This document shows, piece by piece, positions 3,371 to 20,604 of a stretch of 64,000 bases of DNA. Position 1 is the stretch's first letter. The number at the start of each line of letters is the position of its first letter. A program made the position numbers and the translations under genes. Below the pieces are notes generated by a model. That model ran no database searches. It was not told the DNA's origin and worked only from the letters and a program-made list of their open reading frames with translations. The stretch is from Candidatus Pacearchaeota archaeon (lineage in GTDB: Archaea; Nanobdellota; Nanobdellia; Pacearchaeales; GW2011-AR1), in contig JAGLWM010000004.1 of NCBI GenBank assembly GCA_023133415.1, forward strand, positions 3,574-67,573, given 5' to 3'.

Positions 3371-3580
3371 ATGAATATCACTATTGGTATTGTTATGAAT
3401 ATTCATAGTAAAAAAATAATCGGGTTGATAAAAAAAGAGAAAGTGGTAACGAGTTCTGAGGTTGCGGATGTGCTTGGGTTGTCGTGGAATACGGCAGATA
3501 AATATTTGATGGAACTCCTTATTGAAGGAAAAATCGATAGAATAAAAAAAGCAGGAGTGAATTTATGGGCGCTGAAATGA
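3371..3580 (+). CDS. small winged-helix DNA-binding protein
   Basis: VTSSEVADVLGLSWNTADKYLMELLIEGKIDRIKK is a wHTH-like pattern. It is the first gene of the surface island. Confidence 0.5.
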   Translation: MNITIGIVMNIHSKKIIGLIKKEKVVTSSEVADVLGLSWNTADKYLMELLIEGKIDRIKKAGVNLWALK

Positions 3581-4395
3581 GTGCTTCGCACAGTAATGGG
3601 CAATGGGCAATGGGCAATGGGCATGTTGCGCTCTGTAGAGCGCTTGGAAGAAAGAGAGGACAGGTAACGATTTTTATTATTGTGGGGATTGTGATTGTTG
3701 TGGGGATTATTGCTTTTGCTTTTCTAATGCGGGATGTTGATATTGGACCAAAGCCTGATATTGATCCAAAGAATATTGTTCGAAGTTGTGTTAATGATTT
3801 GGTTAAAGATTCTATTGATAAGATGCTTATGAATGGTGGGGAAATTTTGCCGACGAGGGCTATTTCTTATGAGGGAGCTGAATGGAATTATTTATGTTAT
3901 CAGGCAGATTTTTATCAAGGATGTTATAATATTCATCCTATGTTAGAGATACAGATTGAGAAGGAAATTGAAAAGGATAGTTTGAGTGGAGTGCAGAATT
4001 GTTTTGATGTTATGAGGCAGGATCTTGAAAATCGTGGATTTAGTGTTGGGGGTGGAGCGACTGATTATTCCATTGATTTGCTGCCTGGATATGTTGATGT
4101 CAAGCTAGAAAAAAGGGTTGAAATTTCTAAGGAGGGGAGTTCGCAGGTTTTTGATGATTTTGGGTTTGAGGTGGTTTCGCCGATTTATGATTTGGTTCGG
4201 GTGGCTCGGCTTATTGTGAATGATGAGTCGCAGTTTTGTAATTTTGAGTATAATGGTTATATGCTTTTATATCCGAAATATGATATTAGGAGAATTGATT
4301 ATCGAGATAGTAAGATTTATCGGTTGATTGATCGGAGGAGTGGGGATGAGTTTCGATTTGCTATAAGGAGCTGTGCATTTGCGCCTGGAATATGA
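3565..4395 (+). CDS. pilin-like protein with class III signal peptide (RKRGQ + hydrophobic helix)
   Basis: ..GRKRGQVTIFIIVGIVIVVGIIAFAFL. Paralog of 8687..9430. The real start may be ATG 3610. The 5' end overlaps hairpin and aatgggc x3 repeat modules. Confidence 0.65.
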   Translation: MGAEMSASHSNGQWAMGNGHVALCRALGRKRGQVTIFIIVGIVIVVGIIAFAFLMRDVDIGPKPDIDPKNIVRSCVNDLVKDSIDKMLMNGGEILPTRAISYEGAEWNYLCYQADFYQGCYNIHPMLEIQIEKEIEKDSLSGVQNCFDVMRQDLENRGFSVGGGATDYSIDLLPGYVDVKLEKRVEISKEGSSQVFDDFGFEVVSPIYDLVRVARLIVNDESQFCNFEYNGYMLLYPKYDIRRIDYRDSKIYRLIDRRSGDEFRFAIRSCAFAPGI

Positions 4396-7300
4396 TGAGA
4401 GAAAAAATAGTTGCGAGTTTTGAATTGATTTTGATGGTTATGTCATTGTTTGCGTTTGCACATGGGGTTTATTTGAGTGATGAGGTATTTGAAAAACTTG
4501 ATGAAAAATATAAGGAAGCAAGGGATTCCAGACTTACTGAGATTGTTGAACTGAGTGAAAGAATTCAGCCTGAAAAATCGAAAATTGGACTCATTGGTGC
4601 TATTTTTAGGAGGTTGAGGGAGCCAATGATTCAGGTTGTTTCAGCGGCGGAAACTTCGTCTGGTATTGATGAACTGGGATGTTGTTTCATGGCTAAAGAT
4701 GGGTCGAAGTGTGGAACTTCGGAGCCTGGAAATTGTGTTGCGGATTCGCCTTTTGCTGAAGGAGTTTTGTGCGCTTATGCCTCATTTTGCCAAAAGGGTT
4801 GCTGTTTTGATGAGAAGTTGGGGATTTATGATAAAAATGTTTTGGAGGCGGATTGTTCGGCGAGTTGGGTGGGGGATCCTAATTGCAATATGCCCGAGGC
4901 GAAGCTTGGATGTTGTATTTTGGGAACAAGTTCGATTTTTGAGACATTGGGGCAATGTGAGATTGATACTTTAGCGAGGGCAATGGGAGATAGTCCAATT
5001 GTTGATTGGAGGAGTGATTTGGATGAAGGACAGTGTTTTTTAATGTCGGCGACACAGGATGAAGGGGCTTGCATTCTCGATGGAGGAGTTTGCACGTTTG
5101 GGAGTGGGGTTGATTGTTATGATTATGGGGGACAGTTTAGCGAAGGTTTTCTTTGCACTTCTTCTTTGTTGAATAGTAATTGTGAGATGACTGAACAAAC
5201 AACCTGTGTTGATGGTAAGGATGGTGTTTATTTTGTGGATTCTTGTGGGAATTATGCGAATATTTATGATTCGGCGAGGGTGAATGACCAGAGTTATTGG
5301 GAGAGAGTTATCGATCCGGAAAATGCCTGCGGAAATGACGATATTGAGGGAAATGCAGATTCTAAAGATTGTGGGAATTGTAATAGATTTTTTGGTGGAA
5401 TTTGTGGTTCGGCAACGGAGGATAATTTTGATGTTGATATTGGGAGTTTCTATTGTAAAGGGACGTCGTGCATGTTTGATGGAGTGAGTTATAAAAATGG
5501 AGAATCGTGGTGTGTTTATGATGGGGCGATTGGCAATGGGGATGATGTTGTAGGATCGAGGCATTGGAAATATGTGTGTTCACAAGGAGTGGTGCAAATA
5601 GAGCCTTGCGCGGATTATCGTAATCAGATTTGCATTCAGACGAATACTTTTGATGTTGAAGGGGAAGAGGTTGAGTTTCGAAATGCTGCTTGTATTGCTA
5701 ATAATTGGAGGGAGTGTATTGATTTGAATGGTGAGGAAGATGGGATAGACCAGTGTGTTGATGCTTTGAATTGTCGAGTTGAAAATGTTGATATTGCGGA
5801 CAAATTTAAGTTTGATGTGTGTCTTCCAAGGTATCCGGGGGGATTTAGTTTAATAGATGAGAGATATATGGTGACGGCGGAGAGCATTTGTGGGATGGCT
5901 GACCAGATATGTACGGTTGTGCGAGAACCGAAGACATGGGGAGGGTGTAAATATGTTGCGAATAAGGCGTGTCTGAGCGAGGGTTTTGCGCAAGAGATGA
6001 ATGATTTTTGCAGGGGACTTGGAGATTGTGGGGGGTCGGTTAATATTTTGGGGGAGTATTCTGAAAATTATAAAGTTACAAAATCTCCCATGTTGAGTCA
6101 GAGTTGGATTAATAAACTGAAAGCATTGGCTGAACCTGTGCCAGGGCAGTTTGCAGAGGTTGAGGATTATTCGGAGTATTTGGAAGCAGCTGGAGTCTGG
6201 GCGAATCCAGAAGAGGCGGCTGAGAGTGGGGATGCTAGGGGAATGGCTGACTTTCAGAATATAGGAATGGGACTTGCGGGAATTGGATATACCGCTGGGC
6301 TTTGGGCTACTGGTGGAAAACTTGCTCTTACTGGACTTATGGAAATAGCGGGGGGATCGTGGTCGGCGACTGTAGCAAGTTTCGCAGGTGTTGCGATTGG
6401 TGCGGGAATTGGTATGATTGCTGGAGCATATCTTGCTGAATATCTTGAATTGAGTCCGGGCGGAAGTATGTTGATGGCGGTAGGTGGGGCGATGGTCGGC
6501 GGGGCTGTTGTATATTTTAGTTTAACTCCAGCACTTTTAGCAAGTCCTTTCTTTTGGGTTGGTATTGCTCTTATTGTTGTATCTCTTTTTTTTGGTGGCG
6601 ATGATTGTCCTCCGATAGAAGTTATTTTTGAGTGTAAACCGTGGAAAGCTCCTTTGGGTGGGAGTGATTGTGAAAAGTGTAATGAAGATTTGTTGAAACC
6701 GTGCTCGGAGTATCGTTGCAATAGTTTGGGATCGGCATGCGAGTTGGTGAATAAGGGAACTGTCCAAGAGATGTGCGCGTCCTCAAGTGATGATGGAATT
6801 CCTCCTGTTTTAAGTCCGCAGTTTGGGACTATTTCCGCGGATGAAATTTATGGTGACATTAGTGATAGTAGATTTAGTTTGACATCCATAGATGGGGGAT
6901 GCATTGATGCTTATACCCCTTTAATGTTTGGCATTGTTACAAACGAGTTGGCATATTGTAGATTTGATATGGAGACAAAAGAGTTTGAGGAGATGGATTT
7001 CGATTTTGGGGGGAATTCTTATTTATATAATCATACGACTGTATTTAGTCTGCCAGACCCGAGTCATGGGCAGAGTCAAGGAGCGGATTGGAATGGAGAC
7101 TTGACTTTGTATATTAAGTGTGTTGATGTTCACGGGCATGAAAGTCCAGGTTTTTACACGATTGATATGTGTGTGAATCAGGGACCAGATAAAACAGCTC
7201 CGCGGATTGTTGCGACTGATCCTGTGAATAATGCGATTGTTGGATTTGATGTTTCGGAGAAGAGTGTTAGTATTTTCACGAATGAGCTTTCGACTTGTAG

Positions 7301-8621
7301 GTGGGACTTGTCTGATGTTGATTATTCTTCTATGTCTGATAATATGATTTGTGATGACATTTTTGGATCGCCTTCTTCGTCTCAGGGATATCTATGTGAA
7401 ACTGTTGTTCCTCTGGCGGGTGGAGATAGCGTTTATTATATTAAGTGTATGGATCAACCGTGGCTTGATAACATGTATGACCGGAATGTAGTGAGCATGA
7501 TTTACAAACTGCGGAAGCCGGAGAAGAAGATTGAGATTGACTGGATTGAGCCAAGTCAAGATTTTGAGAGTGTGACTGATATGACGACGATTGAGTTGCA
7601 GGTTCAGACTTCGGGTGGGGGAGGATTGCATTATTGTTCGTTTTCGTTTTCGGGATATGATAAAATGATTAAGATGTTTGAAACTGGAGCGGATAGAATA
7701 CATGTTCAACCATTAGAGCGACCTATCGGGACTAGTAAGATTTATGTTGAGTGTACTGATGAGACTGGAGATAGTGTTCAATCATGGACTGAGTTTGAGA
7801 TTATTAAAAGGGGAATTGAAATGGAAATTGAGCCGATTGAGGATTCCGTGAGTGCATTTGAAGAGGTGATTGTTGATTTATTGGTTCGAACTTCGGGTGG
7901 AGGTAACGAGCATAATTGTTCTTATTCGCTTAGTGAGGATGGTGTGGGTATTGAGTTTGAGAAGCAGGGAAATGTTGGTGTTCATGAGCAGGGGGTTACC
8001 GTGGCTGTTGGTAGTCGAACGATTTATGTCGAATGTTGGGACGAGGCAGGAAATTCGGCAAAGGATGATGTTTCGTTTGAGATTATTAGAAAAGGGATGG
8101 AGATTGAGATTGAGCCGATTGAGGATTTCGTGAGTGGATTCAAAGAGGTGGTTGTTTATTTACTGGTTCGAACTTCGGGTGGAGGTAACGAGCATAATTG
8201 TTCTTATTCGCTTAGTGAGGATGGTGTGGGTATTGAGTTTGAGAAGCAGGGAAATGTCGGTGTTCATGAGCAGGGGGTTACCGTGGCTGTTGGTAGTCGA
8301 ACGATTTATGTCGAATGTTGGGACGAGGCAGGAAATTCGGCAAAGGATGATGTTTCGTTTGAGATTGCTTATGATACTTCGGTGCCACAGGTTGCCAGAG
8401 TTTGGCAATCTGACAAAAGGCTTTATGTTGTTACAATCGGGGAAACTAATTGTGAGTATTCGACAGTAAGCTGTAAGTTTAATTGGGGTGATGGTGAGTC
8501 TGCTGGAAGTGGACAGGAGCATGTCATTAATGTTATTCGTGGTAAGACATATTATATCAAGTGTGAGGATGAATTCGGGAATGTGCCTTCGGGGTGTTCG
8601 ATAATAGCGCATACGTTATAA
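4392..8621 (+). CDS. giant cysteine-rich membrane/surface protein (N-terminal Cys-rich ectodomain, Gly-rich multi-TM segment, Cys knot, Ig-like repeats)
   Basis: 1409-aa ORF whose ATGA overlaps the upstream stop. Signal/TM at the N-terminus, dozens of Cys (CGNC, GESWCV, EPCADYRNQIC). TM block GMGLAGIGYTAGLWATGG..FFWVGIALIVVSLFFGG. C-terminal repeated beta-rich modules begin D-x-T-A-P. Confidence 0.85.
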   Translation: MMREKIVASFELILMVMSLFAFAHGVYLSDEVFEKLDEKYKEARDSRLTEIVELSERIQPEKSKIGLIGAIFRRLREPMIQVVSAAETSSGIDELGCCFMAKDGSKCGTSEPGNCVADSPFAEGVLCAYASFCQKGCCFDEKLGIYDKNVLEADCSASWVGDPNCNMPEAKLGCCILGTSSIFETLGQCEIDTLARAMGDSPIVDWRSDLDEGQCFLMSATQDEGACILDGGVCTFGSGVDCYDYGGQFSEGFLCTSSLLNSNCEMTEQTTCVDGKDGVYFVDSCGNYANIYDSARVNDQSYWERVIDPENACGNDDIEGNADSKDCGNCNRFFGGICGSATEDNFDVDIGSFYCKGTSCMFDGVSYKNGESWCVYDGAIGNGDDVVGSRHWKYVCSQGVVQIEPCADYRNQICIQTNTFDVEGEEVEFRNAACIANNWRECIDLNGEEDGIDQCVDALNCRVENVDIADKFKFDVCLPRYPGGFSLIDERYMVTAESICGMADQICTVVREPKTWGGCKYVANKACLSEGFAQEMNDFCRGLGDCGGSVNILGEYSENYKVTKSPMLSQSWINKLKALAEPVPGQFAEVEDYSEYLEAAGVWANPEEAAESGDARGMADFQNIGMGLAGIGYTAGLWATGGKLALTGLMEIAGGSWSATVASFAGVAIGAGIGMIAGAYLAEYLELSPGGSMLMAVGGAMVGGAVVYFSLTPALLASPFFWVGIALIVVSLFFGGDDCPPIEVIFECKPWKAPLGGSDCEKCNEDLLKPCSEYRCNSLGSACELVNKGTVQEMCASSSDDGIPPVLSPQFGTISADEIYGDISDSRFSLTSIDGGCIDAYTPLMFGIVTNELAYCRFDMETKEFEEMDFDFGGNSYLYNHTTVFSLPDPSHGQSQGADWNGDLTLYIKCVDVHGHESPGFYTIDMCVNQGPDKTAPRIVATDPVNNAIVGFDVSEKSVSIFTNELSTCRWDLSDVDYSSMSDNMICDDIFGSPSSSQGYLCETVVPLAGGDSVYYIKCMDQPWLDNMYDRNVVSMIYKLRKPEKKIEIDWIEPSQDFESVTDMTTIELQVQTSGGGGLHYCSFSFSGYDKMIKMFETGADRIHVQPLERPIGTSKIYVECTDETGDSVQSWTEFEIIKRGIEMEIEPIEDSVSAFEEVIVDLLVRTSGGGNEHNCSYSLSEDGVGIEFEKQGNVGVHEQGVTVAVGSRTIYVECWDEAGNSAKDDVSFEIIRKGMEIEIEPIEDFVSGFKEVVVYLLVRTSGGGNEHNCSYSLSEDGVGIEFEKQGNVGVHEQGVTVAVGSRTIYVECWDEAGNSAKDDVSFEIAYDTSVPQVARVWQSDKRLYVVTIGETNCEYSTVSCKFNWGDGESAGSGQEHVINVIRGKTYYIKCEDEFGNVPSGCSIIAHTL
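7797..8360 (+). repeat. in-frame tandem duplication, 2 x 282 bp (94 aa module) inside the giant protein
   Basis: EII(K/R)..IEPIED..LLVRTSGGGNEHNCSYSLSEDGVGIEFEKQGNVGVHEQGVTVAVGSRTIYVECWDEAGNSAKDDVSF occurs twice. The 3' roughly 195 nt of each copy differ at one position by eye. An older diverged copy lies just upstream. Confidence 0.9.
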
Positions 8622-8686: not shown

Positions 8687-9430
8687 ATGAATAAAAAAAA
8701 AGGGCAGGTAGCGATTTTTATTATTGTTGCGATAGTTGTGGTTTCGGCGATTTTAGTTTTTTTTCTGTGGGCACGACCGATTTATCTTGAAGAGAGAGAT
8801 GTGAGGTTTGGATTCGAGGGTTGTGTTGGAGATGCGTTGGAGCAGGGGATTGGAGAACTTGAGAAAAATGCTGGATTTGTAAACACTGATTTTAGTTACC
8901 CCTATGATGGTGAGGATTTTGTTTATCTTTGTTATACGAATGAATATTATAAGACTTGCACTGTGCAGGTTCCGTTCTTGAAGAATAATTTTGACGAGGA
9001 GTTGGAGATTTTTATGAGGGATAAAATTGATAGTTGTTATGATAATTCTCTTGAGAATTTGAGGGAACAGGGTTATGATGTGATTGCGGGAGAGGTTGAT
9101 TATAATGTTGAGATTGAGCCTGGTGTTGTTAGGATTGAGATTGAGGCGCCAACTAGCATTGGTGCGCAGAGATTTGTGAGGTTTAATGTCGAGGTGAATA
9201 GTCCGGTTTATGAAATGGTTATGATTGCGACTTCGCTTTTGCAGTTTGAGTCTAAGTATGGTGATTCGGATATTTCTGCGATTAATTTGCTTTATCCTGA
9301 TTATTATATTGATAAGATTAAAAGGGGAGATGGAACGACAGTTTATATTCTGGAACACAAGACTATGGGGAATAGATTTCTGTTTGCTAGTCGGAGTTTG
9401 GTCTGGCCGGCTGGATACGTGTTTGAATAG
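8687..9430 (+). CDS. pilin-like protein with class III signal peptide (KKKGQ)
   Basis: MNKKKGQVAIFIIVAIVVVSAILVFF. Alignable along its length with 3565..4395 (LCY..C, YP.Y motifs). Confidence 0.7.
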   Translation: MNKKKGQVAIFIIVAIVVVSAILVFFLWARPIYLEERDVRFGFEGCVGDALEQGIGELEKNAGFVNTDFSYPYDGEDFVYLCYTNEYYKTCTVQVPFLKNNFDEELEIFMRDKIDSCYDNSLENLREQGYDVIAGEVDYNVEIEPGVVRIEIEAPTSIGAQRFVRFNVEVNSPVYEMVMIATSLLQFESKYGDSDISAINLLYPDYYIDKIKRGDGTTVYILEHKTMGNRFLFASRSLVWPAGYVFE

Positions 9431-9621: not shown

Positions 9622-9903
9622 TTTGTATTAGAAAGATGATTTAGACATTGTTGTTTGTACCCGGAATATCTGGAAAGATGTTTTGAAGGTGGACGGAATA
9701 TGTTTGAAATTGGATTGTTTATGTAGTGGAATTTGTGTGTTTTTGTTTTTTAACTTTTTTAGAGGAGGAAAACGTTATGAAGATTGTTGTTTGTATTAGA
9801 AAACTGATTTAGACATTGTTGTTTGTGGACGGAATATGTTTGAAATTGGATTGTTTATGTAGTGGTGTGTTTTTGTTTTTTAACTTTTTTAGAGGAGGTT
9901 TTT
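9622..9903 (+). repeat. tandem duplicated non-coding block ending in a T-rich/Shine-Dalgarno leader cassette
   Basis: tttgtattagaaa..tgatttagacattgttgtttgt..ggacggaatatgtttgaaattggattgtttatgtagtgg + gtgtgtttttgttttttaacttttttagaggagg occurs twice. The first copy precedes only an 11-codon remnant (ATG 9777). Confidence 0.7.
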
Positions 9904-10173
9904 ATGTTTGGATTTGGAAATGAAATATTTATTCTTGTAATGGTTTTGGTTTCTGCGGGTTTGATAATTGGAATCGCGGACAATATTCCTAAATTAGGAA
10001 TAATCTTTTTTACCATCCTCGCTTTGGCTGCTTGTCCTATTGTGACCATTCTTGTTGAGATTTATAGTGATCTCAGTATGGCGTTACTCTTTTTGCCATA
10101 TGTTCTTATGGTATCAACAGTGGGAATTGTGAAATGTGCAGGTAACTTGTTGGGCAAGAAGAAAGATTACTAG
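9904..10173 (+). CDS. small integral membrane protein
   Basis: MFGFGNEIFILVMVLVSAGLIIG.. has 3 predicted TM helices. GGAGG lies 6 nt upstream of the ATG. Confidence 0.55.
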   Translation: MFGFGNEIFILVMVLVSAGLIIGIADNIPKLGIIFFTILALAACPIVTILVEIYSDLSMALLFLPYVLMVSTVGIVKCAGNLLGKKKDY

Positions 10174-10228
10174 GAGGAGGGTTTGTGTGTGTTTTTGTTT
10201 TTTTAACTTTTTTAGAGGAGGAAATATT

Positions 10229-11131
10229 ATGAAGAAGATGATTGTTGTTGGGATAGTTATTATGATGTTTGGAATGGCTGAGATTGTTTTTGCTGGAGGG
10301 ATTACTGGAGGTACAACTCGGAATACCACAAATCGGCAGAGGCAGCAGGCACAGCAAAGAATGGATAACCAGCAGTGCAAGGATCCTGGTGTTTCTCAGG
10401 AGACTCTTAACATGGGAAAGAAGATTCTTAATAAGGTTTATCCTGTAACTGAAACTATGGAGAGGTTGATTAGGGGAATGAAGTGGGCGGCTGATAAACA
10501 GAGAGATGGTGGAGGCGTTCCGCCTACTGGTTCTACGGTGAAGGGGAATCCTGAGCTTGTTGGGATAAAAAGCTCGAATTTTTATAACGAAACTAAAAGA
10601 TATGTGGAATCTGGGGCGCTATTTCGGGCCATGTGGAACAACTTAAATAAAGTTATTGGAGTAAAGGACATTTGCCCGGGCGGTTTTCTTGTAGCTGTGG
10701 ATTTTAATAGAGGCGGGAGACAATATTATGAAATCCGCTCTTTTGAATTTCCTCTTCCTGAAGAAGTTATTTCTAAAATTGAAGAAGTTAATAATACATA
10801 TTGGAATGTTAGAACGATTAGGGATAACAATCTTCAATCGCTTGGCTTTATTACCGTTAATCAGCTCCGTAAGCATGGAAGGCGGGGTCGTGACTTCAGG
10901 ACTGGTGCTCTTTATAAATGGGATCTGTGGAAATTTTCTTATAAAAGAAATAGTGGATACTGGTTTCTGGCTATAGATATAGCTAGTAAAATTTATATTC
11001 CATCTGCTGATTTTCAGGAAAAATTTCTTCGAGAAGAAACAATAGAATTTTTAAAGGATACCCAGCGATTTTCTGGATCTGAACATAAAGCTATCATGTA
11101 TAAAAAAATTCCAGATACTTGGAAAAAATAG
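10229..11131 (+). CDS. secreted hypothetical protein
   Basis: MKKMIVVGIVIMMFGMAEIVFAGG signal peptide. A third copy of the leader cassette with GGAGG precedes ATG 10229. The track start 10136 runs through the cassette. Confidence 0.6.
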   Translation: MKKMIVVGIVIMMFGMAEIVFAGGITGGTTRNTTNRQRQQAQQRMDNQQCKDPGVSQETLNMGKKILNKVYPVTETMERLIRGMKWAADKQRDGGGVPPTGSTVKGNPELVGIKSSNFYNETKRYVESGALFRAMWNNLNKVIGVKDICPGGFLVAVDFNRGGRQYYEIRSFEFPLPEEVISKIEEVNNTYWNVRTIRDNNLQSLGFITVNQLRKHGRRGRDFRTGALYKWDLWKFSYKRNSGYWFLAIDIASKIYIPSADFQEKFLREETIEFLKDTQRFSGSEHKAIMYKKIPDTWKK

Positions 11132-14137: not shown

Positions 14138-14157
14138 AAGGGAATGTTGTATTGTTT

Positions 14158-16242
14158 ATGAAGATTGGCATTAGAGGTATTGCATTGTTGCAAGTTTGGT
14201 TGTTGGTTTTTGGAGTTGTTGGATTTGTATTTATGATGGGGAGTGTGAGTGGGGTTAAGCATGGTCCATATATTGGGACTGTTGATATTACTCCTTATGA
14301 CATAATTGATTATTCCTCTGACCCTAAACCCTCTTCTCTTAATACCCCTGTTCCAGGGGAGACTGTTGTAAAGGAGACTGTTATAGAGGAGACTGTTGTA
14401 GAGGGGGCTGTTTCTGGTTCTGATTCTTATCTTTCTAAATTATTCGGATTACAAAAAGGTGGTGGACCGAGTGCTCTTGCTACTGGTTTGCAGTGGGCGG
14501 TAGTTGCTTATTTTGCTGGGACGATGATTGGAGATCTTGTCGGGTTGAATGAGGATAACAGTAAGGCTTTGGGTGCGGCGATGGCGGCTGGTGTTGGGAC
14601 TTATGTTTTTTTAGATACTTATACGAGTAGTGCTTTGCTTGGGGAAGGTGGTCAGCTTGCGTTTTTGGGAGCTAATCCTCCTTTGGTTGGCTTGGGTGTT
14701 GGAGTTGTTGTTTTTGCTTTGATGTATAAGGATGTTGATACGGAGGTTGTGACATTTAATTGTATGCCGTGGCAGGCGCCGATTGGTGGGGATGATTGTG
14801 AGATTTGTAATGATGAGGAGTTGCCTTGTAGTGAGTATAGATGTAGATCTTTAGGGCAGAATTGTGAGATTGTGAATGTGGGAACTACCGACGAGAAATG
14901 TGTGAATGTGAATCCTGGGGATGTTAATCCTCCGGTGATTGCGCCTAAGTATGATGCTTTGACTGCTGGATATGAATATCGGAATGTGAAGCTTTCGCCA
15001 CCGGGGCCTGGTTTTGAAATTGTGAATGTTGCATCCGCAGATGGTTGCTTGAAGGCTTTTACTCCGTTGGAATTTGGTTTGACTTTGAATGAGCCGGGAC
15101 AGTGTAAGATTGATTTTAATCATACGGAAAAGTTTGACGATATGGTTGCGTTTGTTGGGGGGAGTAATTTGTTTTCTTATAATCATAGTGAGGCATTTAG
15201 TTTGCCTGGGGCGAAGGATTTGAGTGATAATGGTTTTGTTTTGGAGAATGGGAAGGATTTGACTTTCTTTGTGAGGTGTCGAGATAAGAATGGGAATGAG
15301 AATTCGGCTGAGTATGCTATTAATTTTTGTATTGACCCTAGTCCTGATAATACGGCTCCAAAGATTGAGGCGACTTCGATTGTGAATGGTGGGTGTGTTG
15401 CGGAGGAGCAAGATACCGCGAATGTTGTGTTTTATACTAACGAGCCGGCGAATTGTAGATGGGATTTTCAGGATCAGGATTATGATTTGATGGCTAATGG
15501 CATGGATTGTGAGAATCAGTTTTGGCAGGCTAATGCGGCGCAGTTGTTTGGGTGTTCTGCGGAGTTGACTGGGATTGCGAGAGATGGCACGACTTTTTAT
15601 GTGAGATGTAAGGATCAGCCTGGGAAAGATGAGGCGGATAGGAATGAAAATAGGGAAAGTTTTGAGTTTAATTTGAGAGGAAGTGTGGGCTTGGTTTTGA
15701 GGAACTTGAAGCCGAATGAGACTATTTTTAGTGGGGTGAGTCCTAGTCCGATTGAGCTTTATGCCGAGACATTGTTTGGTTGTAATAATGGGAGAGCTAT
15801 TTGTGCGTGGTCTGATGATGGAACGAATTATATTCAGTTTTTTGATACGGATAATGAGGATGGGATTCATACTCAGAGATTAGATTTGGTGGGTGGTGAG
15901 CATAAATATTTTGTGAGATGTGTTGACGCTGGAGGAAATTTGGTTGAGGATGTTGCAAGTTTTAGGTTGGATATTGATGTGGATGCTCCGGTGATTGCGA
16001 GAGTTTATGAGGAAGGGCAGATGTTGAAGATTGTGACTGTTCGGAATAGTGAGTGTTCTTATAGTCATGATAATTGTGACTTTATGTTTGGTGAGGGGAT
16101 AGAGATGCCTTATGGGAATACGACTGTTCATGTTGCGGAGTGGGATGAGAAGAAGACTTATTATATCAAATGTCGAGATGAGTTTAGGAATGAGGACGCT
16201 GATTGTTCTATAGTGGTGCGGCCTACTAGTGATTTTATTTGA
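14158..16242 (+). CDS. membrane/surface protein, paralog of the C-terminal half of 4392..8621
   Basis: Gly-rich TM block, then F(N/E)C(M/K)PW(Q/K)AP(I/L)GG(D/S)DCE.CN..(L)PCSEYRC.SLG..CE(I/L)VN, and Ig-like modules with the ..CRWD.. motif. The signal peptide is almost identical to that of 11371..13182. Confidence 0.8.
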   Translation: MKIGIRGIALLQVWLLVFGVVGFVFMMGSVSGVKHGPYIGTVDITPYDIIDYSSDPKPSSLNTPVPGETVVKETVIEETVVEGAVSGSDSYLSKLFGLQKGGGPSALATGLQWAVVAYFAGTMIGDLVGLNEDNSKALGAAMAAGVGTYVFLDTYTSSALLGEGGQLAFLGANPPLVGLGVGVVVFALMYKDVDTEVVTFNCMPWQAPIGGDDCEICNDEELPCSEYRCRSLGQNCEIVNVGTTDEKCVNVNPGDVNPPVIAPKYDALTAGYEYRNVKLSPPGPGFEIVNVASADGCLKAFTPLEFGLTLNEPGQCKIDFNHTEKFDDMVAFVGGSNLFSYNHSEAFSLPGAKDLSDNGFVLENGKDLTFFVRCRDKNGNENSAEYAINFCIDPSPDNTAPKIEATSIVNGGCVAEEQDTANVVFYTNEPANCRWDFQDQDYDLMANGMDCENQFWQANAAQLFGCSAELTGIARDGTTFYVRCKDQPGKDEADRNENRESFEFNLRGSVGLVLRNLKPNETIFSGVSPSPIELYAETLFGCNNGRAICAWSDDGTNYIQFFDTDNEDGIHTQRLDLVGGEHKYFVRCVDAGGNLVEDVASFRLDIDVDAPVIARVYEEGQMLKIVTVRNSECSYSHDNCDFMFGEGIEMPYGNTTVHVAEWDEKKTYYIKCRDEFRNEDADCSIVVRPTSDFI

Positions 16243-16915: not shown

Positions 16916-17413
16916 ATGGAGATGATAAATAAGAGGGGACAGCAGACTATGGGGATGCCGTTTGGGATGATTTTTGCGATTTTTTTGATTGTGGTTTTTG
17001 TTGTTATTGCTTTTGTTGCGGTTGGGTATTTTTTGGATATTGGGAGGAGTGCGAGTGTTGGGTTGTTTTATGATGAGTTGCAGACGGCGGTTGATGATGC
17101 AGTGAGGGGACAATCAAGTGAGAGAAGCTTTGATGTGGATTTGCCTTCGGGAATTGAGAAGGTTTGTTTTGCGAATTTGAGTGGGATGATTACGAATCCC
17201 GGGGCTGATTATGATGCGATTCGGAATTATGATGTTTATGATGCGAATGTTTTTTTGGTGCCGCCGGAGTATGCTCAGAATATGCAGTGGAAAAGGATTG
17301 ACCGGATTAATGTAACGCGGATTACACAGGTTGAGAATCCTTATTGTGTTGAGGTCGAGGATGGGTTGAAGATTAAGAAGGGGTTTTATGATCGATTGGT
17401 TTTTATTGAATAA
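16916..17413 (+). CDS. pilin-like protein with class III signal peptide (NKRGQQ)
   Basis: MEMINKRGQQTMGMPFGMIFAIFLIVVFVVIAFVAVGYF. Confidence 0.7.
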   Translation: MEMINKRGQQTMGMPFGMIFAIFLIVVFVVIAFVAVGYFLDIGRSASVGLFYDELQTAVDDAVRGQSSERSFDVDLPSGIEKVCFANLSGMITNPGADYDAIRNYDVYDANVFLVPPEYAQNMQWKRIDRINVTRITQVENPYCVEVEDGLKIKKGFYDRLVFIE

Positions 17414-17530: not shown

Positions 17531-17579
17531 GGAAGTAGAAAGATTTAAAATAACTATTATTGTGGTTATTATAACCTTT

Positions 17580-18098
17580 ATGGTGATTATTATGGAATTT
17601 AAGATTTTTATTGAGAAGAGCCCATTGGCTCGAAAAGTTTTTGGGAAACGGGAGATTGTGATTATTCGTAAACAGATTGCTGGGATTAATTTGACGCAGT
17701 CGGAGAAAAATAGGCTTTCCAGGGATATTCGACCGAAGTTAAGATTTATTCTGGAGGCTTCAAAATTTAGAGATGAGTTTGATTTGAAGAAGGGAAGTGA
17801 GAATAGAAAAATTGTTGAGAACGTTTTGGAGGTAATTAGGAAAGATGAGGATTTTGGGAAAATTTTGGAGATTTGGTTGTTTGGCTCGATGGTAGAGAAC
17901 AAGATGACGATTCGTTCTGATGTCGATGTTTGTGTTTTATTTGATAGGATTGGTCAAGTTGGTGCTGATAAGTTTAGATTGAGGATTTTGGGATGGCTTA
18001 GTGATAAGGCTGATGTTCAAGTGTTTAATATTTTGCCTAATAAGATTAAAAAGTCAATATTAAAAAGTCATAGGGTATTGTATAAGAGAAATGGGTGA
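17580..18098 (+). CDS. mntA: nucleotidyltransferase-domain protein (MNT-type antitoxin candidate) with N-terminal extension
   Basis: LFGSMVENKMTIRSDVDVCVLF (GS..SDxD) motif. Start uncertain (17562, 17580 or 17592). Confidence 0.7.
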   Translation: MVIIMEFKIFIEKSPLARKVFGKREIVIIRKQIAGINLTQSEKNRLSRDIRPKLRFILEASKFRDEFDLKKGSENRKIVENVLEVIRKDEDFGKILEIWLFGSMVENKMTIRSDVDVCVLFDRIGQVGADKFRLRILGWLSDKADVQVFNILPNKIKKSILKSHRVLYKRNG

Positions 18099-18492
18099 TA
18101 GAAAAGGTGATAAGATTGTTGAGATAGAAGAGTATTCGGATAAGTTGACTGAATTTTTTCCTTCTGATTTTAAAAATTATACTTCTGACGAGAAAACCAA
18201 AGCGGCATGTGAGAGATATTTTGAGAAGATTGTCGAGAGTGTTGTTGATTTGGCATTCTTTACTATTAAAGAAGAAAATTTTAGGGCGCCAGAATTTGAT
18301 AGGGAGGCATTTGAAATTTTAGCTGGGAAAAATCTAATTTCTGAGAAACTTTCTTTGAATCTTGGCAATGCGAAATCTATGCGAAATTGGTTGGCACACA
18401 GATATGGGAAAGTTGACGATAAAAAGGTGTTTGAGGCTATTCGTGATAAGTTGTTTTATGATGTTAGAGATTTTTTGGAGGCAATAAAATGA
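18091..18492 (+). CDS. hepT: HEPN/DUF86-domain protein (HepT-type toxin candidate)
   Basis: RNWLAHRYG (R-x4-H-x-Y) motif. Overlaps the MNT gene by 8 nt. Confidence 0.75.
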   Translation: MGDRKGDKIVEIEEYSDKLTEFFPSDFKNYTSDEKTKAACERYFEKIVESVVDLAFFTIKEENFRAPEFDREAFEILAGKNLISEKLSLNLGNAKSMRNWLAHRYGKVDDKKVFEAIRDKLFYDVRDFLEAIK

Positions 18493-19424
18493 AAAGGGGG
18501 CAGTTTAGTTTTGTCTGGTTGTTTGCGATTTTGGCGGGTGGGGCGATTTTGGCTTTGGCGATTTGGGGTGCGATGCAAGCTGGAGGCACATTGAGATTTC
18601 AAAGTGAGACCGAGGCTGCCAAGAGTATTTCGATTTTGACTGATCCTTTGCAGACTGGTTTTGCCGAAGGGTCTTTTGGGAAGATTTCTTTTCGGCAGAA
18701 AGCTCGATTAAATAATATTTGTTTGGATTCTGGATTTGGGAAGAATGATATTTCGGTCGCAATACGAAGCAGTGTTGGGAAAGAATGGAATTTGGCTGGA
18801 GGTGCGACATCTGTTCACAATAAATATATCTTTTCTGAAGAGGTGAATGAGGGTTTTGATTTTTTTGTTTTTTCTAAGTCTTTTAATTTTCCGTATGAGG
18901 TTAGTGATTTGATTTTTTTGAGTTCTGGAAATTATTGTTTTTTGAATTCGCCCGAAAGTGTTGAGGAGGATGTTTTGGGATTGGGAATTGATAATGTTGT
19001 TCTTGATAATTGCAGTATTGGGGATATTCGAGTTTGTTTTGGAGGCGGTGTTGATTGTGATATTTTTGTTTATGGGTCGTGTTCGGGAAATTGTGATTCA
19101 ATTTATGATGAGGGGACTGTTGCGAAGGAGGGTGGGGATTCTGATTATGTTGGGAATTTGATGTATGCTGCGATTTTTTCTGATAAGGAAGTTTATGATT
19201 GTAATGTTAGACGGTTGTTGTACCGAGCGAAAAGTATTGCAGATATTTTTGTGGAGAAGAGTGATTTGATGAATGCTCGGAATTGTAATACTAATTTGAA
19301 GGGTGATTTGATTGTTTGGAGTGCGATGCTGGAGGGTGCTGGTTCTGAGGATTTGGTTTTGTTGAAGGGGTTTGCTAAGAATTTAGGAAGGAAGGAAGAC
19401 AGGGAGTTGTGTAGGGTATGGTAA
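18489..19424 (+). CDS. pilin-like protein with class III signal peptide (MKRGQF)
   Basis: MKRGQFSFVWLFAILAGGAILALAIWG. ATGA overlap with hepT. Confidence 0.7.
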   Translation: MKRGQFSFVWLFAILAGGAILALAIWGAMQAGGTLRFQSETEAAKSISILTDPLQTGFAEGSFGKISFRQKARLNNICLDSGFGKNDISVAIRSSVGKEWNLAGGATSVHNKYIFSEEVNEGFDFFVFSKSFNFPYEVSDLIFLSSGNYCFLNSPESVEEDVLGLGIDNVVLDNCSIGDIRVCFGGGVDCDIFVYGSCSGNCDSIYDEGTVAKEGGDSDYVGNLMYAAIFSDKEVYDCNVRRLLYRAKSIADIFVEKSDLMNARNCNTNLKGDLIVWSAMLEGAGSEDLVLLKGFAKNLGRKEDRELCRVW

Positions 19425-19588
19425 AAAAGCTTTGCTTTTTTACCGGTGGTCGGGGGTCGGTGGTCGGTAGTCGGGATGACTTGGGCAACTTGCGGGGGTC
19501 GGGAGTTGGGGGTCGTGAGTCGTGGGTCGTGAGTCGTGGGTTGGGGGTCGTGAGTCGTGGGTTGGGGGTCGGGGGGAAGGGGGGGCAG
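19425..19588 (+). repeat. G-rich GGTCGG-type modular repeat (hairpin aaaaagctttgcttttt, 26-nt core, gacttgggcaacttg module, gtcgtgagtcgtgg subrepeats, G runs)
   Basis: Core ggtcgggggtcggtggtcggtagtcgg at 19448-19473 is identical to 57612-57637. Open in frame with the downstream CDS (track ORF 19418..20074). Confidence 0.85.
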
Positions 19589-20074
19589 ATGAAGATTATG
19601 CAGATGTCGTTTATGATTATTGCTGTGTTTTTCTTTTTTATTTTGGTTGGTTTGTTTTTTTTGGGAATTGCATTTAAAGATATTCGGAGTGGGGCTGAGC
19701 AGCTGCAAAGGGAGCAGGCTATTTCTTCTTTGGAGGTTATTGCTGGGATGAATGAGCTTGCTTATTATTCGGGTGAGTCGATGAGTGTTGATGAGGATAA
19801 GTTGCGGATTATGTCGGGGAGCTTGAGCGTGGATTATGGAGAATTTTGGCCGATTGCTTCGTTGGAATTTCATAAGGTTTATCCGGCTTTTGATGAAGTT
19901 GTGAAATGTCCTGCTGTGGGGTGTAATTATTACGAGATTTTTGATTCTGGGCAGAGGGATGTTGAGAAGTTTTCTTCTTATGTTTCTATTTGTAAAAGGG
20001 TTAGGGAGTTTGATAGTGTTTATAATCGGTGTGAGATTGGGAAAATTGTTGTGGGCATGAGGATTTTAGAATGA
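19589..20074 (+). CDS. membrane-anchored pilin-like protein; possibly translated from 19418 with a repeat-encoded leader ending KGGQ
   Basis: MKIMQMSFMIIAVFFFFILVGLFFLGIAF. The alternative ATG 19418 overlaps the upstream stop by 7 nt. Confidence 0.6.
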   Translation: MKIMQMSFMIIAVFFFFILVGLFFLGIAFKDIRSGAEQLQREQAISSLEVIAGMNELAYYSGESMSVDEDKLRIMSGSLSVDYGEFWPIASLEFHKVYPAFDEVVKCPAVGCNYYEIFDSGQRDVEKFSSYVSICKRVREFDSVYNRCEIGKIVVGMRILE

Positions 20075-20604
20075 AATTGAGAAATGAAATAAATAATATG
20101 AAAAATAAAATAAATAGAAAGGGGCAGCAGGAGATTGTGGGGTTTGTTTTGATTGTGGTCTTGGTGATGGTTGGGCTGATGGTTTTTTTGGTGATTTCGG
20201 TTCGGGATGTTACGGAGACGGAAGATAGTCTTGAGGTTTTGAATATGATTGGTGTTTTGATGAGGACGACTAGTGAGTGCGCGATTGTTTATGAGCCGGA
20301 TTATGATGATTTTGAGGATTTGTTTAAGAGTTGTCATAAAAATGATCGGTGTAGTAATTTGGATAGGTCTGCTTGTGATTATTTGAACGAGAGTTTTGGT
20401 GATGTTGTTGATGCTCTGATGAGAAGTGAGGCGGATGTTGAGGCTTGGGATGTTGAGTTTTTTGTTAAGGATGGAGGTGAGATGCTTGGTTTTTGGGATT
20501 CGGAATCTGGTAATTGCACGGGACGAGTTGAGGGGGCGCAGAGGAGTATAGTTTCTGGAGGAGAGAGTTTGGTTGTTAGAATGAGGGTCTGTCGTGGGAG
20601 TTAG
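20071..20604 (+). CDS. pilin-like protein with class III signal peptide (NRKGQQ)
   Basis: ..KINRKGQQEIVGFVLIVVLVMVGLMVFLVI. ATGA overlap with the upstream gene. Confidence 0.7.
   Translation: MKLRNEINNMKNKINRKGQQEIVGFVLIVVLVMVGLMVFLVISVRDVTETEDSLEVLNMIGVLMRTTSECAIVYEPDYDDFEDLFKSCHKNDRCSNLDRSACDYLNESFGDVVDALMRSEADVEAWDVEFFVKDGGEMLGFWDSESGNCTGRVEGAQRSIVSGGESLVVRMRVCRGS

What the first reader, a model, noticed from the sequence alone, without database searches (positions are those of the whole stretch)
3371..20604. Accessory island of six or more KRGQ-type pilin-like proteins around giant cysteine-rich membrane proteins: candidate uncharacterised surface/attachment apparatus
Pilin-like ORFs start at 3565, 8687, 16916, 18489 and 20071, and probably 19418/19589. 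Each begins with a short basic stretch ending (K/R)(K/R)GQ, followed by a roughly 20-aa hydrophobic helix. This is the archaeal class III signal-peptide pattern, with Gln at +1 as in euryarchaeal EppA-type pilins. The pilin-like genes are interleaved with a 1409-aa protein and its split paralogs. Those proteins combine a very Cys-rich ectodomain, a Gly-rich multi-TM block, a Cys knot and Ig-like modules. Two pilin paralogs (3565 and 8687) directly bracket the giant gene with overlapping stop/start codons. No assembly ATPase, PilC/ArlJ-like platform protein or prepilin peptidase is in the window. Cys-rich extracellular proteins of this size are unusual for archaea. For a small-genome symbiont-like archaeon this is a plausible host-contact machine, but that is inference only.
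Basis: partly seen in the sequence, partly recalled or inferred. Interest (0 to 1): 0.8.

Follow-up and report, generated by a model that had tools for sequence, protein, structure and literature searches.

The report
Conserved pilin-like envelope gene cluster, Pacearchaeota
This is not an accessory island but a deeply conserved, uncharacterised cell-envelope gene cluster of Pace-/Woesearchaeota: six families of pilin-like proteins sharing one cleavage-type signal, plus cysteine-rich membrane proteins, next to the S-layer genes.

Summary
The 64-kb window has exactly six [KR][KR/G]GQ + hydrophobic-helix N-termini, all on the + strand between 3.6 and 20.2 kb. They are interleaved with a 1409-aa protein (4.8% Cys) and its split paralogs of 605 and 696 aa.

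The "accessory island" reading does not hold. The gene order primase(-)/PCNA/[wHTH]/pilA/giant/pilB/N-half/C-half/pilC/pilD/pilE/pilF/HTH(-)/S-layer recurs in 80 species-representative genomes named Pace-, Woese- or Nanoarchaeota. At least 296 genomes carry a pilB relative. The cluster proteins diverge almost as slowly as PCNA and primase.

Over 274 sequences the shared motif is K(-3) 76%, K/R(-2) 87%, G/A/S(-1) 100% and Q(+1) 92%. The six families are otherwise alike only near the N-terminus. That is the pattern expected of class III (prepilin-type) signal peptides of the Q+1, EppA/Epd kind.

No Pfam, NCBIfam, PHROGs or PDB-sequence match, and no specific structural match, explains any component. 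No assembly ATPase, platform protein or prepilin peptidase lies in the window or within ±10 kb in 80 genomes.

Best reading: a lineage-wide, pilin-derived envelope complex docked to disulfide-rich Ig-domain membrane proteins. A role in host contact is untested.

The parts
3371..3580 (+). Small winged-helix protein (69 aa). It overlaps the start of pilA and may be the cluster's regulator.
   Evidence: Pfam DUF977 5e-8, FaeA 8e-6, HTH_24. Found at the same position, 58-69% identical, in 16 related loci.
3565..4395 (+). pilA: class III-signal (pilin-like) protein, paralog of pilB. The RKRGQ|VTIFII motif starts at nt 3649. Its stop overlaps the giant gene's start.
   Evidence: It lies immediately upstream of a Cys-rich N-domain gene in related genomes.
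4392..8621 (+). Giant 1409-aa membrane protein. Layout: N-terminal hydrophobic helix, Cys-rich beta-rich ectodomain (about aa 95-590), disordered Gly-rich linker, three strong hydrophobic 'glycine-zipper' helices (aa 658-742), CxxC...CxxxxC knot, then tandem Ig-like modules.
   Evidence: 359 homologs, none with a Pfam domain. About 60 invariant Cys. AF2 model pLDDT 76. Foldseek gives only generic tandem-Ig hits. Hydropathy and Cys counts.
7793..8366 (+). Recent 282-bp tandem duplication (2.0 copies, 94% matches) that adds one 94-aa Ig-like module to the giant.
   Evidence: Orthologs are mostly 1160-1290 aa.
8687..9430 (+). pilB: class III-signal (pilin-like) protein, KKKGQ|VAIFII, and a universal core member.
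   Evidence: 285 homologs at 60-82% identity. Invariant G6 and Q7. AF2 pLDDT 84: helix 4-37 followed by an alpha/beta domain. No PDB structural match at E<=1e-3. At least 296 genomes carry a relative.
11365..13182 (+). N-half: 605-aa protein (probable start ATG 11371) with a Sec-type signal and the Cys-rich ectodomain only (41 Cys, 6.8%). It is an orthologous core family, not a fragment.
   Evidence: phmmer finds 1490 50%-identity clusters at E<=1e-3, falling in two length classes, about 500-650 and about 1200-1350 aa.
14152..16242 (+). C-half: 696-aa protein (probable start ATG 14158) with a signal-like N-terminus, Gly-rich hydrophobic block, Cys knot and Ig-like modules. Core family.
   Evidence: Only weak Big_13 hits.
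16916..17413 (+). pilC: 165-aa class III-signal protein, NKRGQ|QTMGMPFGMIF.
   Evidence: Found in 41 loci directly after C-half. hhalign similarity to pilD and pilB is confined to the N-terminal ~80 residues.
18489..19424 (+). pilD: 311-aa class III-signal protein, MKRGQ|FSFVWLFAIL, 10 Cys.
   Evidence: 473 homologs at 57-77% identity, all unnamed. Distant orthologs have G|F/Y-LQISFAWLFA.
19418..20074 (+). pilE: class III-signal protein, KGGQ|MKIMQMSFMII. The true start is probably TTG 19562 or GTG 19550, after a G-rich repeat.
20071..20604 (+). pilF: 177-aa class III-signal protein, NRKGQ|QEIVGFVLIVV, with invariant E at +3.
20657..21013 (-). Highly conserved HTH regulator (HVO_A0114 family), divergent from the S-layer gene. 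It closes the cluster in nearly all genomes.
   Evidence: Pfam PF25212 3e-18. 71-88% identical in close relatives. Present in 10 of 11 loci that have at least 3.5 kb downstream of pilD.
21590..23878 (+). S-layer-like protein with a Sec signal peptide. It is the conserved downstream neighbour. This entry is context, not shown to be part of the complex.
   Evidence: Pfam S_layer_C 8.6e-11. Synteny. N-terminus MKKIFRKAVTVLGSTALIGATVGMAAAAS.
9862..11131 (+). Two non-conserved ORFs (103 aa, multi-TM; 331 aa, Sec signal) inserted between pilB and N-half. They form the variable filler and are not part of the conserved set.
   Evidence: No tblastn match in any of 84 related loci.
17562..18492 (+). MNT/HepT toxin-antitoxin pair inserted between pilC and pilD. 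This is a sporadic insert.
   Evidence: Pfam NTP_transf_2/Polbeta and HepT-like. Present in only a few related loci.

Best explanation
The region encodes a vertically inherited cell-envelope complex that is a hallmark of Pace- and Woesearchaeota-type Nanoarchaeota.

**Composition**
- The core is seven genes: pilB, a secreted Cys-rich protein (N-half), a membrane-embedded glycine-zipper + Ig-array protein (C-half), and four pilin-like proteins (pilC-F).
- This genome also carries a duplicated copy, pilA + giant, in which the N and C halves are fused.

**Proposed mechanism (inferred)**
- The six pilin-like families carry the same class III-type signal, consensus N-K-[KR]-[GA]|Q. I infer that a Q+1-tolerant prepilin peptidase of the EppA kind, encoded elsewhere, cleaves it.
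- After cleavage, the N-terminal hydrophobic helices would pack together, as in type IV filament subunits.
- The most likely product is a short pilus or pseudopilus-like stalk. pilC-F would play the part of a minor-pilin set. pilA and pilB would each dock the Cys-rich ectodomain encoded by the next gene.
- The glycine-zipper/Ig-array proteins would hold the assembly in the membrane beneath the S-layer, which is encoded immediately downstream.

**Shown:** the anatomy, the motif, the conservation, the gene pairing and the absence of known homologs.
**Inferred:** cleavage, helix-mediated assembly, docking and extracellular location.
For: **Shared signal**
- Exactly six motif-bearing ORFs occur in 64 kb, and all are in this cluster.
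- Over 274 sequences from six families, -1 is G/A/S in 100%, +1 is Q in 92% and -2 is K/R in 87%, while leader length varies.
- The six families resemble each other only near the N-terminus in profile-profile comparison, as pilins do.
- The S-layer neighbour uses an ordinary Sec signal, so KRGQ is not this organism's generic signal.

**Conservation**
- The same gene order is kept in 80 species representatives at protein identities down to 25-35%.
- Divergence is close to that of PCNA and primase.
- A pilA/B gene is directly followed by a Cys-rich N-domain gene in 117 of 121 cases.

**Extracellular character**
- About 60 Cys are invariant in the giant, with paired Cys in the Ig-like modules.
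- N-half and C-half have Sec-like N-termini.

**Envelope context**
- Neighbours are an S_layer_C protein, a GT2 glycosyltransferase, and a pacearchaeosortase with its PACE-CTERM putative S-layer protein.

**Literature**
- An Epd-like (system 1) type IV filament machinery with a dedicated peptidase is reported in DPANN archaea (preprint 10.64898/2026.04.22.720090).
- EppA-cleaved pilins are described in PMC4858521.
Against: - No ATPase, platform protein or prepilin peptidase lies in the window or within ±10 kb of the cluster in 80 genomes.
- One groundwater study states that type IV pilus components are missing in DPANN genomes (10.1101/2020.05.14.094862).
- No pilin model in Pfam or NCBIfam matches any of the six proteins, even at E<=1.
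- The pilB model is a helix, a flexible linker and a novel alpha/beta domain. It has no structural match to any solved pilin.
- No small major-pilin candidate was found in the loci.
- The giant and C-half have their own membrane segments, so they cannot sit at the tip of a long fibre.
- The topology of the Gly-rich block (2, 3 or 4 spans) is unresolved.
Confidence: 0.45

Rival explanations
1. A motor-independent envelope scaffold. The pilin-like proteins are processed, or simply inserted, and remain membrane-anchored by their N-terminal helices, as ArlF/ArlG of the archaellum or the Sulfolobus bindosome binding proteins do. Together with the Cys-rich and Ig-array proteins they form a pseudo-periplasmic or S-layer-anchoring lattice rather than a filament.
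For: - No ATPase or platform gene is nearby in 80 genomes.
- The S-layer gene is the conserved neighbour, and the pacearchaeosortase/PACE-CTERM pair lies close by.
- Housekeeping-level conservation fits a structural envelope role.
- Among Foldseek hits to the Ig-array are S-layer proteins (SbsB, Haloferax csg, EA1), at generic level only.
- The pilB model has a flexible linker after the helix rather than a pilin lollipop.
- Class III-signal proteins that are not filament subunits are documented.
Against: - Four small pilin-like genes in one operon (pilC-F) is the typical layout of minor-pilin sets.
- Nothing directly links any component to the S-layer protein.
- The same lack of data on motor genes elsewhere in the genome applies here.
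Confidence: 0.3
2. A host-contact machine. The complex mediates attachment to, or exchange of lipids, nucleotides or DNA with, a host cell. The glycine-zipper block would act as a membrane-active or pore element and the Cys-rich ectodomain as the host-binding part.
For: [quoted passage not shown]
- The proteins are large, disulfide-rich and carry Ig arrays.
- Glycine-zipper helices have no positively charged loops.
- The cluster is restricted to, and near-universal in, Pace-/Woese-type genomes.
Against: - There is no similarity to known adhesins beyond generic Ig folds, and none to fusogens or translocators. The AopB and Syncytin sequence hits (E=0.6-0.8) are not significant.
- Conservation close to that of PCNA is unlike host-specific adhesins.
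- No experimental system exists for these lineages.
Confidence: 0.15
3. The KRGQ N-termini are plain uncleaved signal-anchors of type II membrane proteins. The shared motif reflects a lineage-specific insertion or topology signal with no relation to type IV filaments.
For: - No pilin profile matches.
- pilB has no pilin fold.
- No peptidase was found locally.
- One paper states that DPANN genomes lack type IV pilus components.
Against: - Invariant small residue at -1 and Q at +1 across six unrelated families with variable leaders is what a protease recognition site looks like. A positive-inside anchor needs neither.
- The motif matches the EppA/Epd type known from methanococci (the motif itself is from my own knowledge).
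Confidence: 0.1
4. An accessory, mobile or viral island.
For: - An MNT/HepT toxin-antitoxin pair and non-conserved ORFs sit inside the region.
- Paralog copy number varies between genomes.
Against: - The position next to PCNA/primase is fixed in 80 genomes.
- Divergence rate is at housekeeping level.
- No relatives occur in 50,697 phage records or in IMG/VR.
- No integrase or tRNA lies at the borders.
Confidence: 0.02

Closest known systems
EppA-dependent Epd pilins of Methanococcus maripaludis (archaeal type IV filament 'system 1')
   Same: - A short basic leader ends in K/R-G, followed by Gln at +1 and a roughly 20-aa hydrophobic helix.
- Several pilin-like genes of different sizes sit in one operon.
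- System 1 is reported in some DPANN archaea.
   Different: - None of the six proteins matches the Class_IIIsignal/DUF361 or other pilin profiles.
- No ATPase, double platform gene or EppA lies in the locus.
- The globular domains are unrelated, and the one modelled is a new alpha/beta fold.
- The partners are Cys-rich membrane proteins unknown from Epd loci.
Bacterial minor-pilin/minor-pseudopilin sets with a large partner (FimU-PilVWX + PilY1; GspH-I-J-K)
   Same: - Four co-operonic pilin-like genes, one of them markedly larger (pilD, 311 aa), are encoded beside large non-pilin surface proteins.
- Similarity among the members is limited to the N-terminal helix.
   Different: - There is no sequence or structural homology. 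The large partners carry their own signal peptides and membrane spans, and no secretin or motor is present. This is an analogy only.
Class III-signal proteins that are not fibre subunits (ArlF/ArlG archaellum stator; Sulfolobus bindosome sugar-binding proteins)
   Same: - A pilin-type N-terminus serves to anchor or array a functional ectodomain at the envelope.
- These genes can lie away from the motor genes.
   Different: - The ectodomains are unrelated, and no ABC transporter or archaellum genes are nearby.
Predicted archaeal secretion or envelope system with Ig-like 'S-layer-like' membrane proteins (arCOG02487/02884; Makarova 2015), and the DPANN-specific dark-matter family cls.004306/NEQ255 (Makarova 2019)
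   Same: - Membrane or secreted proteins with Ig-like ectodomains and 2-4 TM spans are encoded beside S-layer genes.
- A DPANN-specific secreted protein is described as 'often next to' such genes.
   Different: - That system is defined by arCOG01314, a MoxR ATPase and vWA proteins, none of which is here.
- PF07760 does not match.
- Identity with cls.004306 could not be tested because no sequence was at hand.

Membership tests
Class III signal peptide / type IV pilin-like proteins (TFF superfamily subunits) | Short, positively charged leader ending in a small residue (G/A/S) at -1 with K/R at -2, directly followed by a hydrophobic helix of about 20 aa | tested here: met
   All six window proteins meet it. 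In 274 orthologs, -1 is G/A/S in 100%, -2 is K/R in 87%, and leader length is variable.
Class III signal peptide / type IV pilin-like proteins (TFF superfamily subunits) | Match to curated pilin N-terminal or pilin models (e.g. PF04021 Class_IIIsignal, PF07790 Pilin_N, archaellin and NCBIfam pilin models) | tested here: not met
   No such family appears at E<=1 for window proteins or for divergent orthologs. The best is DUF7289 N-terminus at E=0.09 for one pilF ortholog.
Class III signal peptide / type IV pilin-like proteins (TFF superfamily subunits) | Pilin architecture: N-terminal helix carrying a globular, usually beta-rich, head that resembles solved pilins | tested here: inconclusive
   The pilB AF2 model (pLDDT 84) has helix 4-37, a low-confidence linker and an alpha/beta domain. 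Foldseek against PDB gives 0 hits at E<=1e-3.
Class III signal peptide / type IV pilin-like proteins (TFF superfamily subunits) | Cleavage by a prepilin peptidase (Peptidase_A24: PibD/FlaK/EppA) present in the same genome | not testable with these tools
   None is in the window, in about 9 kb of further contig, or in the ±10-kb flanks of 80 loci. Whole genomes could not be scanned.
Type IV filament system (complete machinery) | Secretion ATPase (T2SSE) plus TadC/PilC/ArlJ platform encoded with the subunits | tested here: not met
   No such Pfam hit in the window. No recurrent ATPase-sized family and no Walker-A protein of 350 aa or more occurs in 80 loci.
Epd / system-1 (EppA-type) pilins | Gln at +1 of the mature protein | tested here: met
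   Q at +1 in 92% of 257 aligned sequences. Some distant pilD orthologs show F/Y after the Gly in unaligned N-termini.
Archaeal S-layer proteins (S_layer_C / PACE-CTERM) | Match to the S-layer family models | tested here: not met
   The giant, N-half and C-half have no S-layer model hit. The neighbours 21590-23878 (S_layer_C) and 27417-29072 (PACE-CTERM-PROT) do.
Class II fusogens / fusexins, adhesins, T3SS-type translocators | Structural or sequence similarity of the ectodomain or membrane block | tested here: not met
   The top 50 Foldseek hits in PDB and in BFVD are generic tandem Ig/FN3 proteins (TM<=0.13). Sequence hits to AopB and Syncytin-1 are at E=0.6-0.8, which is not significant.

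The most novel reading that the evidence does not exclude
The cluster may encode a previously unrecognised envelope nanomachine that is universal to Pace- and Woesearchaeota. It would be built from pilin-derived subunits but work without a type IV filament motor. Its disulfide-rich ectodomains and glycine-zipper membrane block would form the physical interface, for attachment, bridging or uptake, through which these ultra-small archaea live on other cells.
Probability: 0.2. Interest if true: 0.88.

Novelty: new variant of a known kind. Interest (0 to 1): 0.7.

Why it matters
- **The organisms are poorly understood.** Pace- and Woesearchaeota are among the most abundant uncultivated archaea in groundwater, lakes and sediments. 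How they build their envelope or contact other cells is unknown.
- **The target is concrete.** This analysis defines a nine-family gene cluster that is near-universal in the lineage, evolves about as slowly as replication proteins, sits beside the S-layer genes and has no known homologs.
- **It gives handles for experiment.** These are a shared cleavage-type motif (N-K-[KR]-[GA]|Q), an obligatory pilB/N-domain gene pair, and a fused versus split architecture.
- **It bears on two open questions.** One is whether these DPANN lineages, said to lack type IV pili, nonetheless use pilin-type proteins. The other is what their conserved 'dark matter' does.

Tried and rejected
**Sequence-family searches**
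- Pfam, NCBIfam and PHROGs on all cluster proteins gave nothing above threshold.
- Pfam on 34 family members and on divergent pilC-F orthologs gave only weak Big_13 Ig-like hits.
- PDB sequence-profile searches with the giant and pilA/B families gave nothing significant.

**Structure searches**
- Foldseek of the giant model against PDB and BFVD returned only generic tandem Ig/FN3 hits. Because these fill the top 50, any match to the Cys-rich domain weaker than about 1e-6 would be hidden.
- Foldseek of the pilB model against PDB gave no hit at E<=1e-3.

**Mobile or viral origin**
- Rejected: no relatives in phage records or in IMG/VR.

**Search for the missing machinery**
- Pfam on nearly all other large ORFs in the window found no ATPase, platform or peptidase.
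- Regex and hydropathy screens of 1,029 ORFs from 80 loci found only a presenilin/SPP-like GxGD protease in L040, not an A24 peptidase, and no large Walker-A proteins.
- Extending the contig downstream gave only the ribosomal operon and SecY.
- The upstream look-up failed because the primase product is not on record with that start.

**Other checks**
- A scan for an additional small major pilin with the motif found only divergent members of the same six families.
- Eight literature searches found no description of this cluster. The nearest is a one-line table entry for DPANN family cls.004306/NEQ255, which could not be linked because no sequence was at hand.
- The topology of the Gly-rich block could not be settled from hydropathy alone.

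Full report
**1. What is in the sequence**

The window comes from a Pacearchaeota-type DPANN archaeon.
- It encodes an archaeal primase, PCNA, FtsZ and an S_layer_C protein.
- It encodes a pacearchaeosortase and its PACE-CTERM target.
- Identical proteins are deposited as 'Candidatus Pacearchaeota archaeon'.

A six-frame scan of the whole 64 kb for [KR]G[Q/A/S/F] followed by a hydrophobic 20-mer finds six KRGQ-type sites. All six lie on the + strand between 3.6 and 20.2 kb. Nothing comparable occurs elsewhere.

- The 276-aa and 247-aa proteins (here pilA and pilB) are 30% identical, E=1e-30.
- The 1409-aa giant aligns over its Cys-rich half with the 605-aa protein (33% identity, E=2e-45).
- The giant aligns over its Gly-rich/Cys-knot/Ig half with the 696-aa protein (31% identity, E=3e-74).

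Cysteine makes up 4.8% of the giant and 6.8% of the 605-aa protein, against about 1% in neighbouring proteins.

Minor corrections:
- Only pilA overlaps the giant gene. pilB starts 65 nt after the giant's stop.
- pilE must start upstream of the ATG at 19589, because the family-wide GQ motif precedes it.
- A 282-bp tandem duplication at 7793-8366 adds one Ig-like module to this particular giant.

**2. It is a conserved core locus, not an accessory island**

Homologs are many and all unnamed:
- The giant has 359 homologs, all 'hypothetical' and none with a Pfam domain. Most are about 1,200 aa and 40-66% identical.
- pilB has 285 homologs and pilD has 473, mostly 57-82% identical.
- Locus tags in several assemblies place the giant or pilB gene 5-17 genes from pilD.

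Gene maps of four homolog contigs and of 80 GTDB species-representative loci retrieved with the pilA/B profile show one recurring order: primase(-) | PCNA | [wHTH] | pilA | giant | pilB | N-half | C-half | pilC | pilD | pilE | pilF | HTH(-) | S-layer protein.

- The records are titled Pacearchaeota, Woesearchaeota, Nanoarchaeota or Nanoarchaeia.
- At least 296 genomes encode a pilB relative.
- Nine lineages lack pilA + giant and keep only PCNA-pilB-N-half-C-half-pilC/D/E(/F)-HTH-S-layer. Others have two or three pilA-giant-type units.
- The split proteins are therefore the ancestral-looking core. pilA + giant is a duplicated module in which the N and C halves are fused.
- A full-library phmmer search with the N-half finds 1,490 50%-identity clusters in two length classes, about 500-650 and about 1,200-1,350 aa.

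The rate of divergence is close to that of housekeeping genes:

| Comparison set | PCNA | Primase | Cluster proteins |
|---|---|---|---|
| Close relatives | 70% | 71% | 55-66% |
| Distant relatives | 48% | 40% | 26-37% |

No relative exists in 50,697 phage records or in IMG/VR contigs. The non-conserved items in the window are the two ORFs at 9862-11131, the MNT/HepT pair, the 23S-IVP-type protein and the 292-aa ORF.

**3. The N-terminal signal**

I aligned each of the six families from the about 80 genomes. The positions around the motif are strikingly uniform even though the leaders vary from 3 to more than 30 residues:

| Position | Residue | Frequency |
|---|---|---|
| -3 | K | 76% |
| -2 | K/R | 87% |
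| -1 | G/A/S | 100% |
| +1 | Q | 92% |

The sequences after the site are specific to each family:
- pilA/B: VTIFII
- pilC: QTMGMPFGMIF or MKLSFGMIF
- pilD: FNFVWLFAI or (F/Y)LQISFAWLFAI
- pilE: MKIQQMAFM
- pilF: QEIVGF

Profile-profile comparison finds similarity between families only near the N-terminus. Examples are pilC-pilD at 94% probability and pilB-pilC at 80%, each over about 80 residues. pilA and pilB are the exception, being full-length paralogs.

An invariant small residue followed by an almost invariant Gln, shared by unrelated ectodomains, is what a common protease site looks like. It is not what a generic signal-anchor requires. The S-layer neighbour uses a normal Sec signal.

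From my own knowledge, KKGQ at the cleavage site is the pattern of the EppA-processed Epd pilins of Methanococcus. The literature at hand confirms that EppA is a dedicated peptidase for those pilins (PMC4858521). It also reports that the Epd-like 'system 1' occurs in DPANN archaea (preprint 10.64898/2026.04.22.720090).

Against membership, no curated pilin model matches, even at E<=1.

**4. Structures**

The AF2 model of giant residues 1-1200 (57-sequence alignment, mean pLDDT 76) shows, in order:
- an N-terminal long helix;
- a confidently modelled beta-rich Cys-rich ectodomain (about aa 95-590, with many blocks above pLDDT 85);
- a disordered Gly-rich stretch (aa 601-663);
- three helices (aa 658-731);
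- a small Cys knot;
- a string of beta-sandwich modules.

About 60 Cys are invariant in 57 homologs. Foldseek against PDB and BFVD returns only generic tandem Ig/FN3 proteins at TM<=0.13. These include axonemal proteins, cell-adhesion molecules, S-layer proteins and phage Ig-domain proteins. PDB sequence profiles and Pfam give nothing beyond weak Big_13 hits.

The pilB model (pLDDT 84) has a helix at residues 4-37, a low-confidence linker and a two-lobed alpha/beta domain. It has no PDB match at E<=1e-3. The one globular head I could model is therefore a new fold, not a recognisable pilin head.

The topology of the Gly-rich block is unresolved. Hydropathy shows three strong segments plus a weak one in the giant. 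The acidic residues after the last segment, the paired Cys in the Ig modules, and the Sec-like N-termini of N-half and C-half make an extracellular location of both halves the more likely reading. This is an inference.

**5. Context and gene pairing**

A pilA/B-family gene is directly followed by a gene for the Cys-rich N-domain in 117 of 121 cases. The remaining four have small insertions. That is the signature of an obligatory pair.

pilC-D-E-F follow C-half, with overlapping or closely spaced genes.

Among loci with enough downstream sequence, 10 of 11 continue with the divergent HVO_A0114-type HTH gene and the S-layer gene. In the window the envelope theme continues with a GT2 glycosyltransferase and the pacearchaeosortase/PACE-CTERM pair.

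None of the following carries a secretion ATPase, a TadC/ArlJ platform or an A24 peptidase:
- the window;
- about 9 kb of additional contig downstream;
- the ±10-kb flanks of 80 loci.

One groundwater study states that type IV pilus components are missing in DPANN genomes. The 2026 TFF census finds systems in some DPANN. I could not scan whole genomes.

**6. Most likely mechanism**

Shown:
- a lineage-wide, vertically inherited set of six families with a common class III-like site;
- two or three families of disulfide-rich membrane or secreted proteins;
- strict pilB/N-domain pairing;
- envelope context.

Inferred:
- The six proteins are cleaved at [KR][GA]|Q by a Q+1-type prepilin peptidase encoded elsewhere.
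- Their hydrophobic helices then associate as in type IV filament subunits.
- pilC-F act like a minor-pilin set and form a short stalk or pseudopilus.
- pilA and pilB each dock the Cys-rich ectodomain encoded by the next gene.
- The glycine-zipper/Ig-array proteins fix the assembly in the membrane under the S-layer.

I put 0.45 on this reading. The main rival, at 0.3, is the same set of parts acting as a motor-independent anchored scaffold, in the manner of ArlF/ArlG or the bindosome. A host-contact or uptake role (0.15) is compatible with either architecture but has no direct support. The slow divergence argues against a host-specific adhesin. Plain signal-anchors (0.1) and a mobile island (0.02) are unlikely.

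**7. Comparison with what is known, and novelty**

The N-termini work like EppA/Epd-type class III signals.
- Features met: the motif, and Gln at +1.
- Features failed: matches to curated pilin models, and locus composition.
- Inconclusive: the pilin fold.
- Untestable here: cleavage.

I therefore do not file the proteins as Epd pilins. I call them pilin-like, meaning they carry a class III-type signal. The four-gene pilC-F set beside large partners is analogous to, not homologous with, bacterial minor-pilin/PilY1 arrangements.

The closest published mention I found is a table entry in PMC6393860. It describes a DPANN-specific secreted family (cls.004306, NEQ255) as 'often encoded next to' a predicted Ig-like S-layer or secretion component. 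I could not test whether that family is one of these. No paper in the searchable library describes the cluster.

I rate it a new variant of a known kind. It has a pilin-type signal on novel proteins, joined to large protein families without known relatives, in an arrangement not described before.

**8. Verdict**

- Observation: confirmed.
- Interpretation: partly supported. It is an uncharacterised surface apparatus, but not an accessory island, and the host-contact role is untested.
- Interest: 0.7.

The finding gives a concrete, widely conserved and experimentally approachable target in a major uncultivated archaeal lineage. Its function, however, remains inferred.

Noticed in passing
window 1-64000 (strongest at 2000-28000 and 44000-64000): GC skew on the + strand is extreme, (G-C)/(G+C) = +0.4 to +0.6, with T>A. 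Most of the genes identified in these stretches are on the + strand, and the skew creates many long spurious antisense ORFs. The skew drops to about 0 at 28-44 kb, where genes are on the - strand.
   Followed up: partly
window 19493-19575: A G-rich repeat, (CGGGGGT) x12 with a 21-nt super-period, lies between the pilD stop and the pilE GQ motif. If read from ATG 19418 it translates to a Gly/Arg/Val low-complexity leader. It could form a G-quadruplex. Orthologs have short leaders here.
   Followed up: partly
window 26676-27194 (-) and 27417-29072 (-): A pacearchaeosortase (NF033505, E=6e-39) sits next to its PACE-CTERM putative S-layer protein (NF033506, E=7.5e-82, C-terminal TM). Together with the S_layer_C protein (21590-23878) and a GT2 glycosyltransferase (23978-24787), this makes 3.4-29 kb one long envelope neighbourhood.
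   Followed up: partly
window 17562-18492 (also L003 14567-15167, L084 16845-17697, L057 10635-10886): An MNT/HepT toxin-antitoxin pair is inserted inside the pilin-like operon, and similar pairs occur at comparable positions in other genomes. Makarova et al. 2019 noted unusually conserved MNT-HEPN genes in housekeeping contexts in DPANN.
   Followed up: no
window 16389-16751; L005 1706-2071 and 11808-12161: Proteins of the 23S_rRNA_IVP four-helix-bundle family (PF05635) recur between cluster genes in several genomes. Their role is unknown.
   Followed up: no
window 7793-8366: A 282-bp tandem duplication (94% matches) of one Ig-like module lies inside the giant gene. It indicates recent module gain.
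   Followed up: yes
window 16765-16867: A 44-bp tandem repeat (2.3 copies, 86% matches) lies in the intergenic region just upstream of pilC. It may be a regulatory element.
   Followed up: no
window 39414-42362 (+): A 982-aa protein with an N-terminal signal-like helix has no Pfam or NCBIfam match. It is another large uncharacterised secreted protein.
   Followed up: no
L040 15128-16066 (-): A 312-aa, 8-TM protein carries YD...GGGD...PAM motifs and so looks like a presenilin/signal-peptide-peptidase-type GxGD protease. It lies 5 kb from the cluster in one Woesearchaeota genome and is not a prepilin (A24) peptidase.
   Followed up: partly
L002/L010 8526-9227, L003 8530-9240: In some close relatives an extra gene of about 235 aa, with no Pfam hit, sits between the wHTH gene and pilA. 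It is absent from the window.
   Followed up: no
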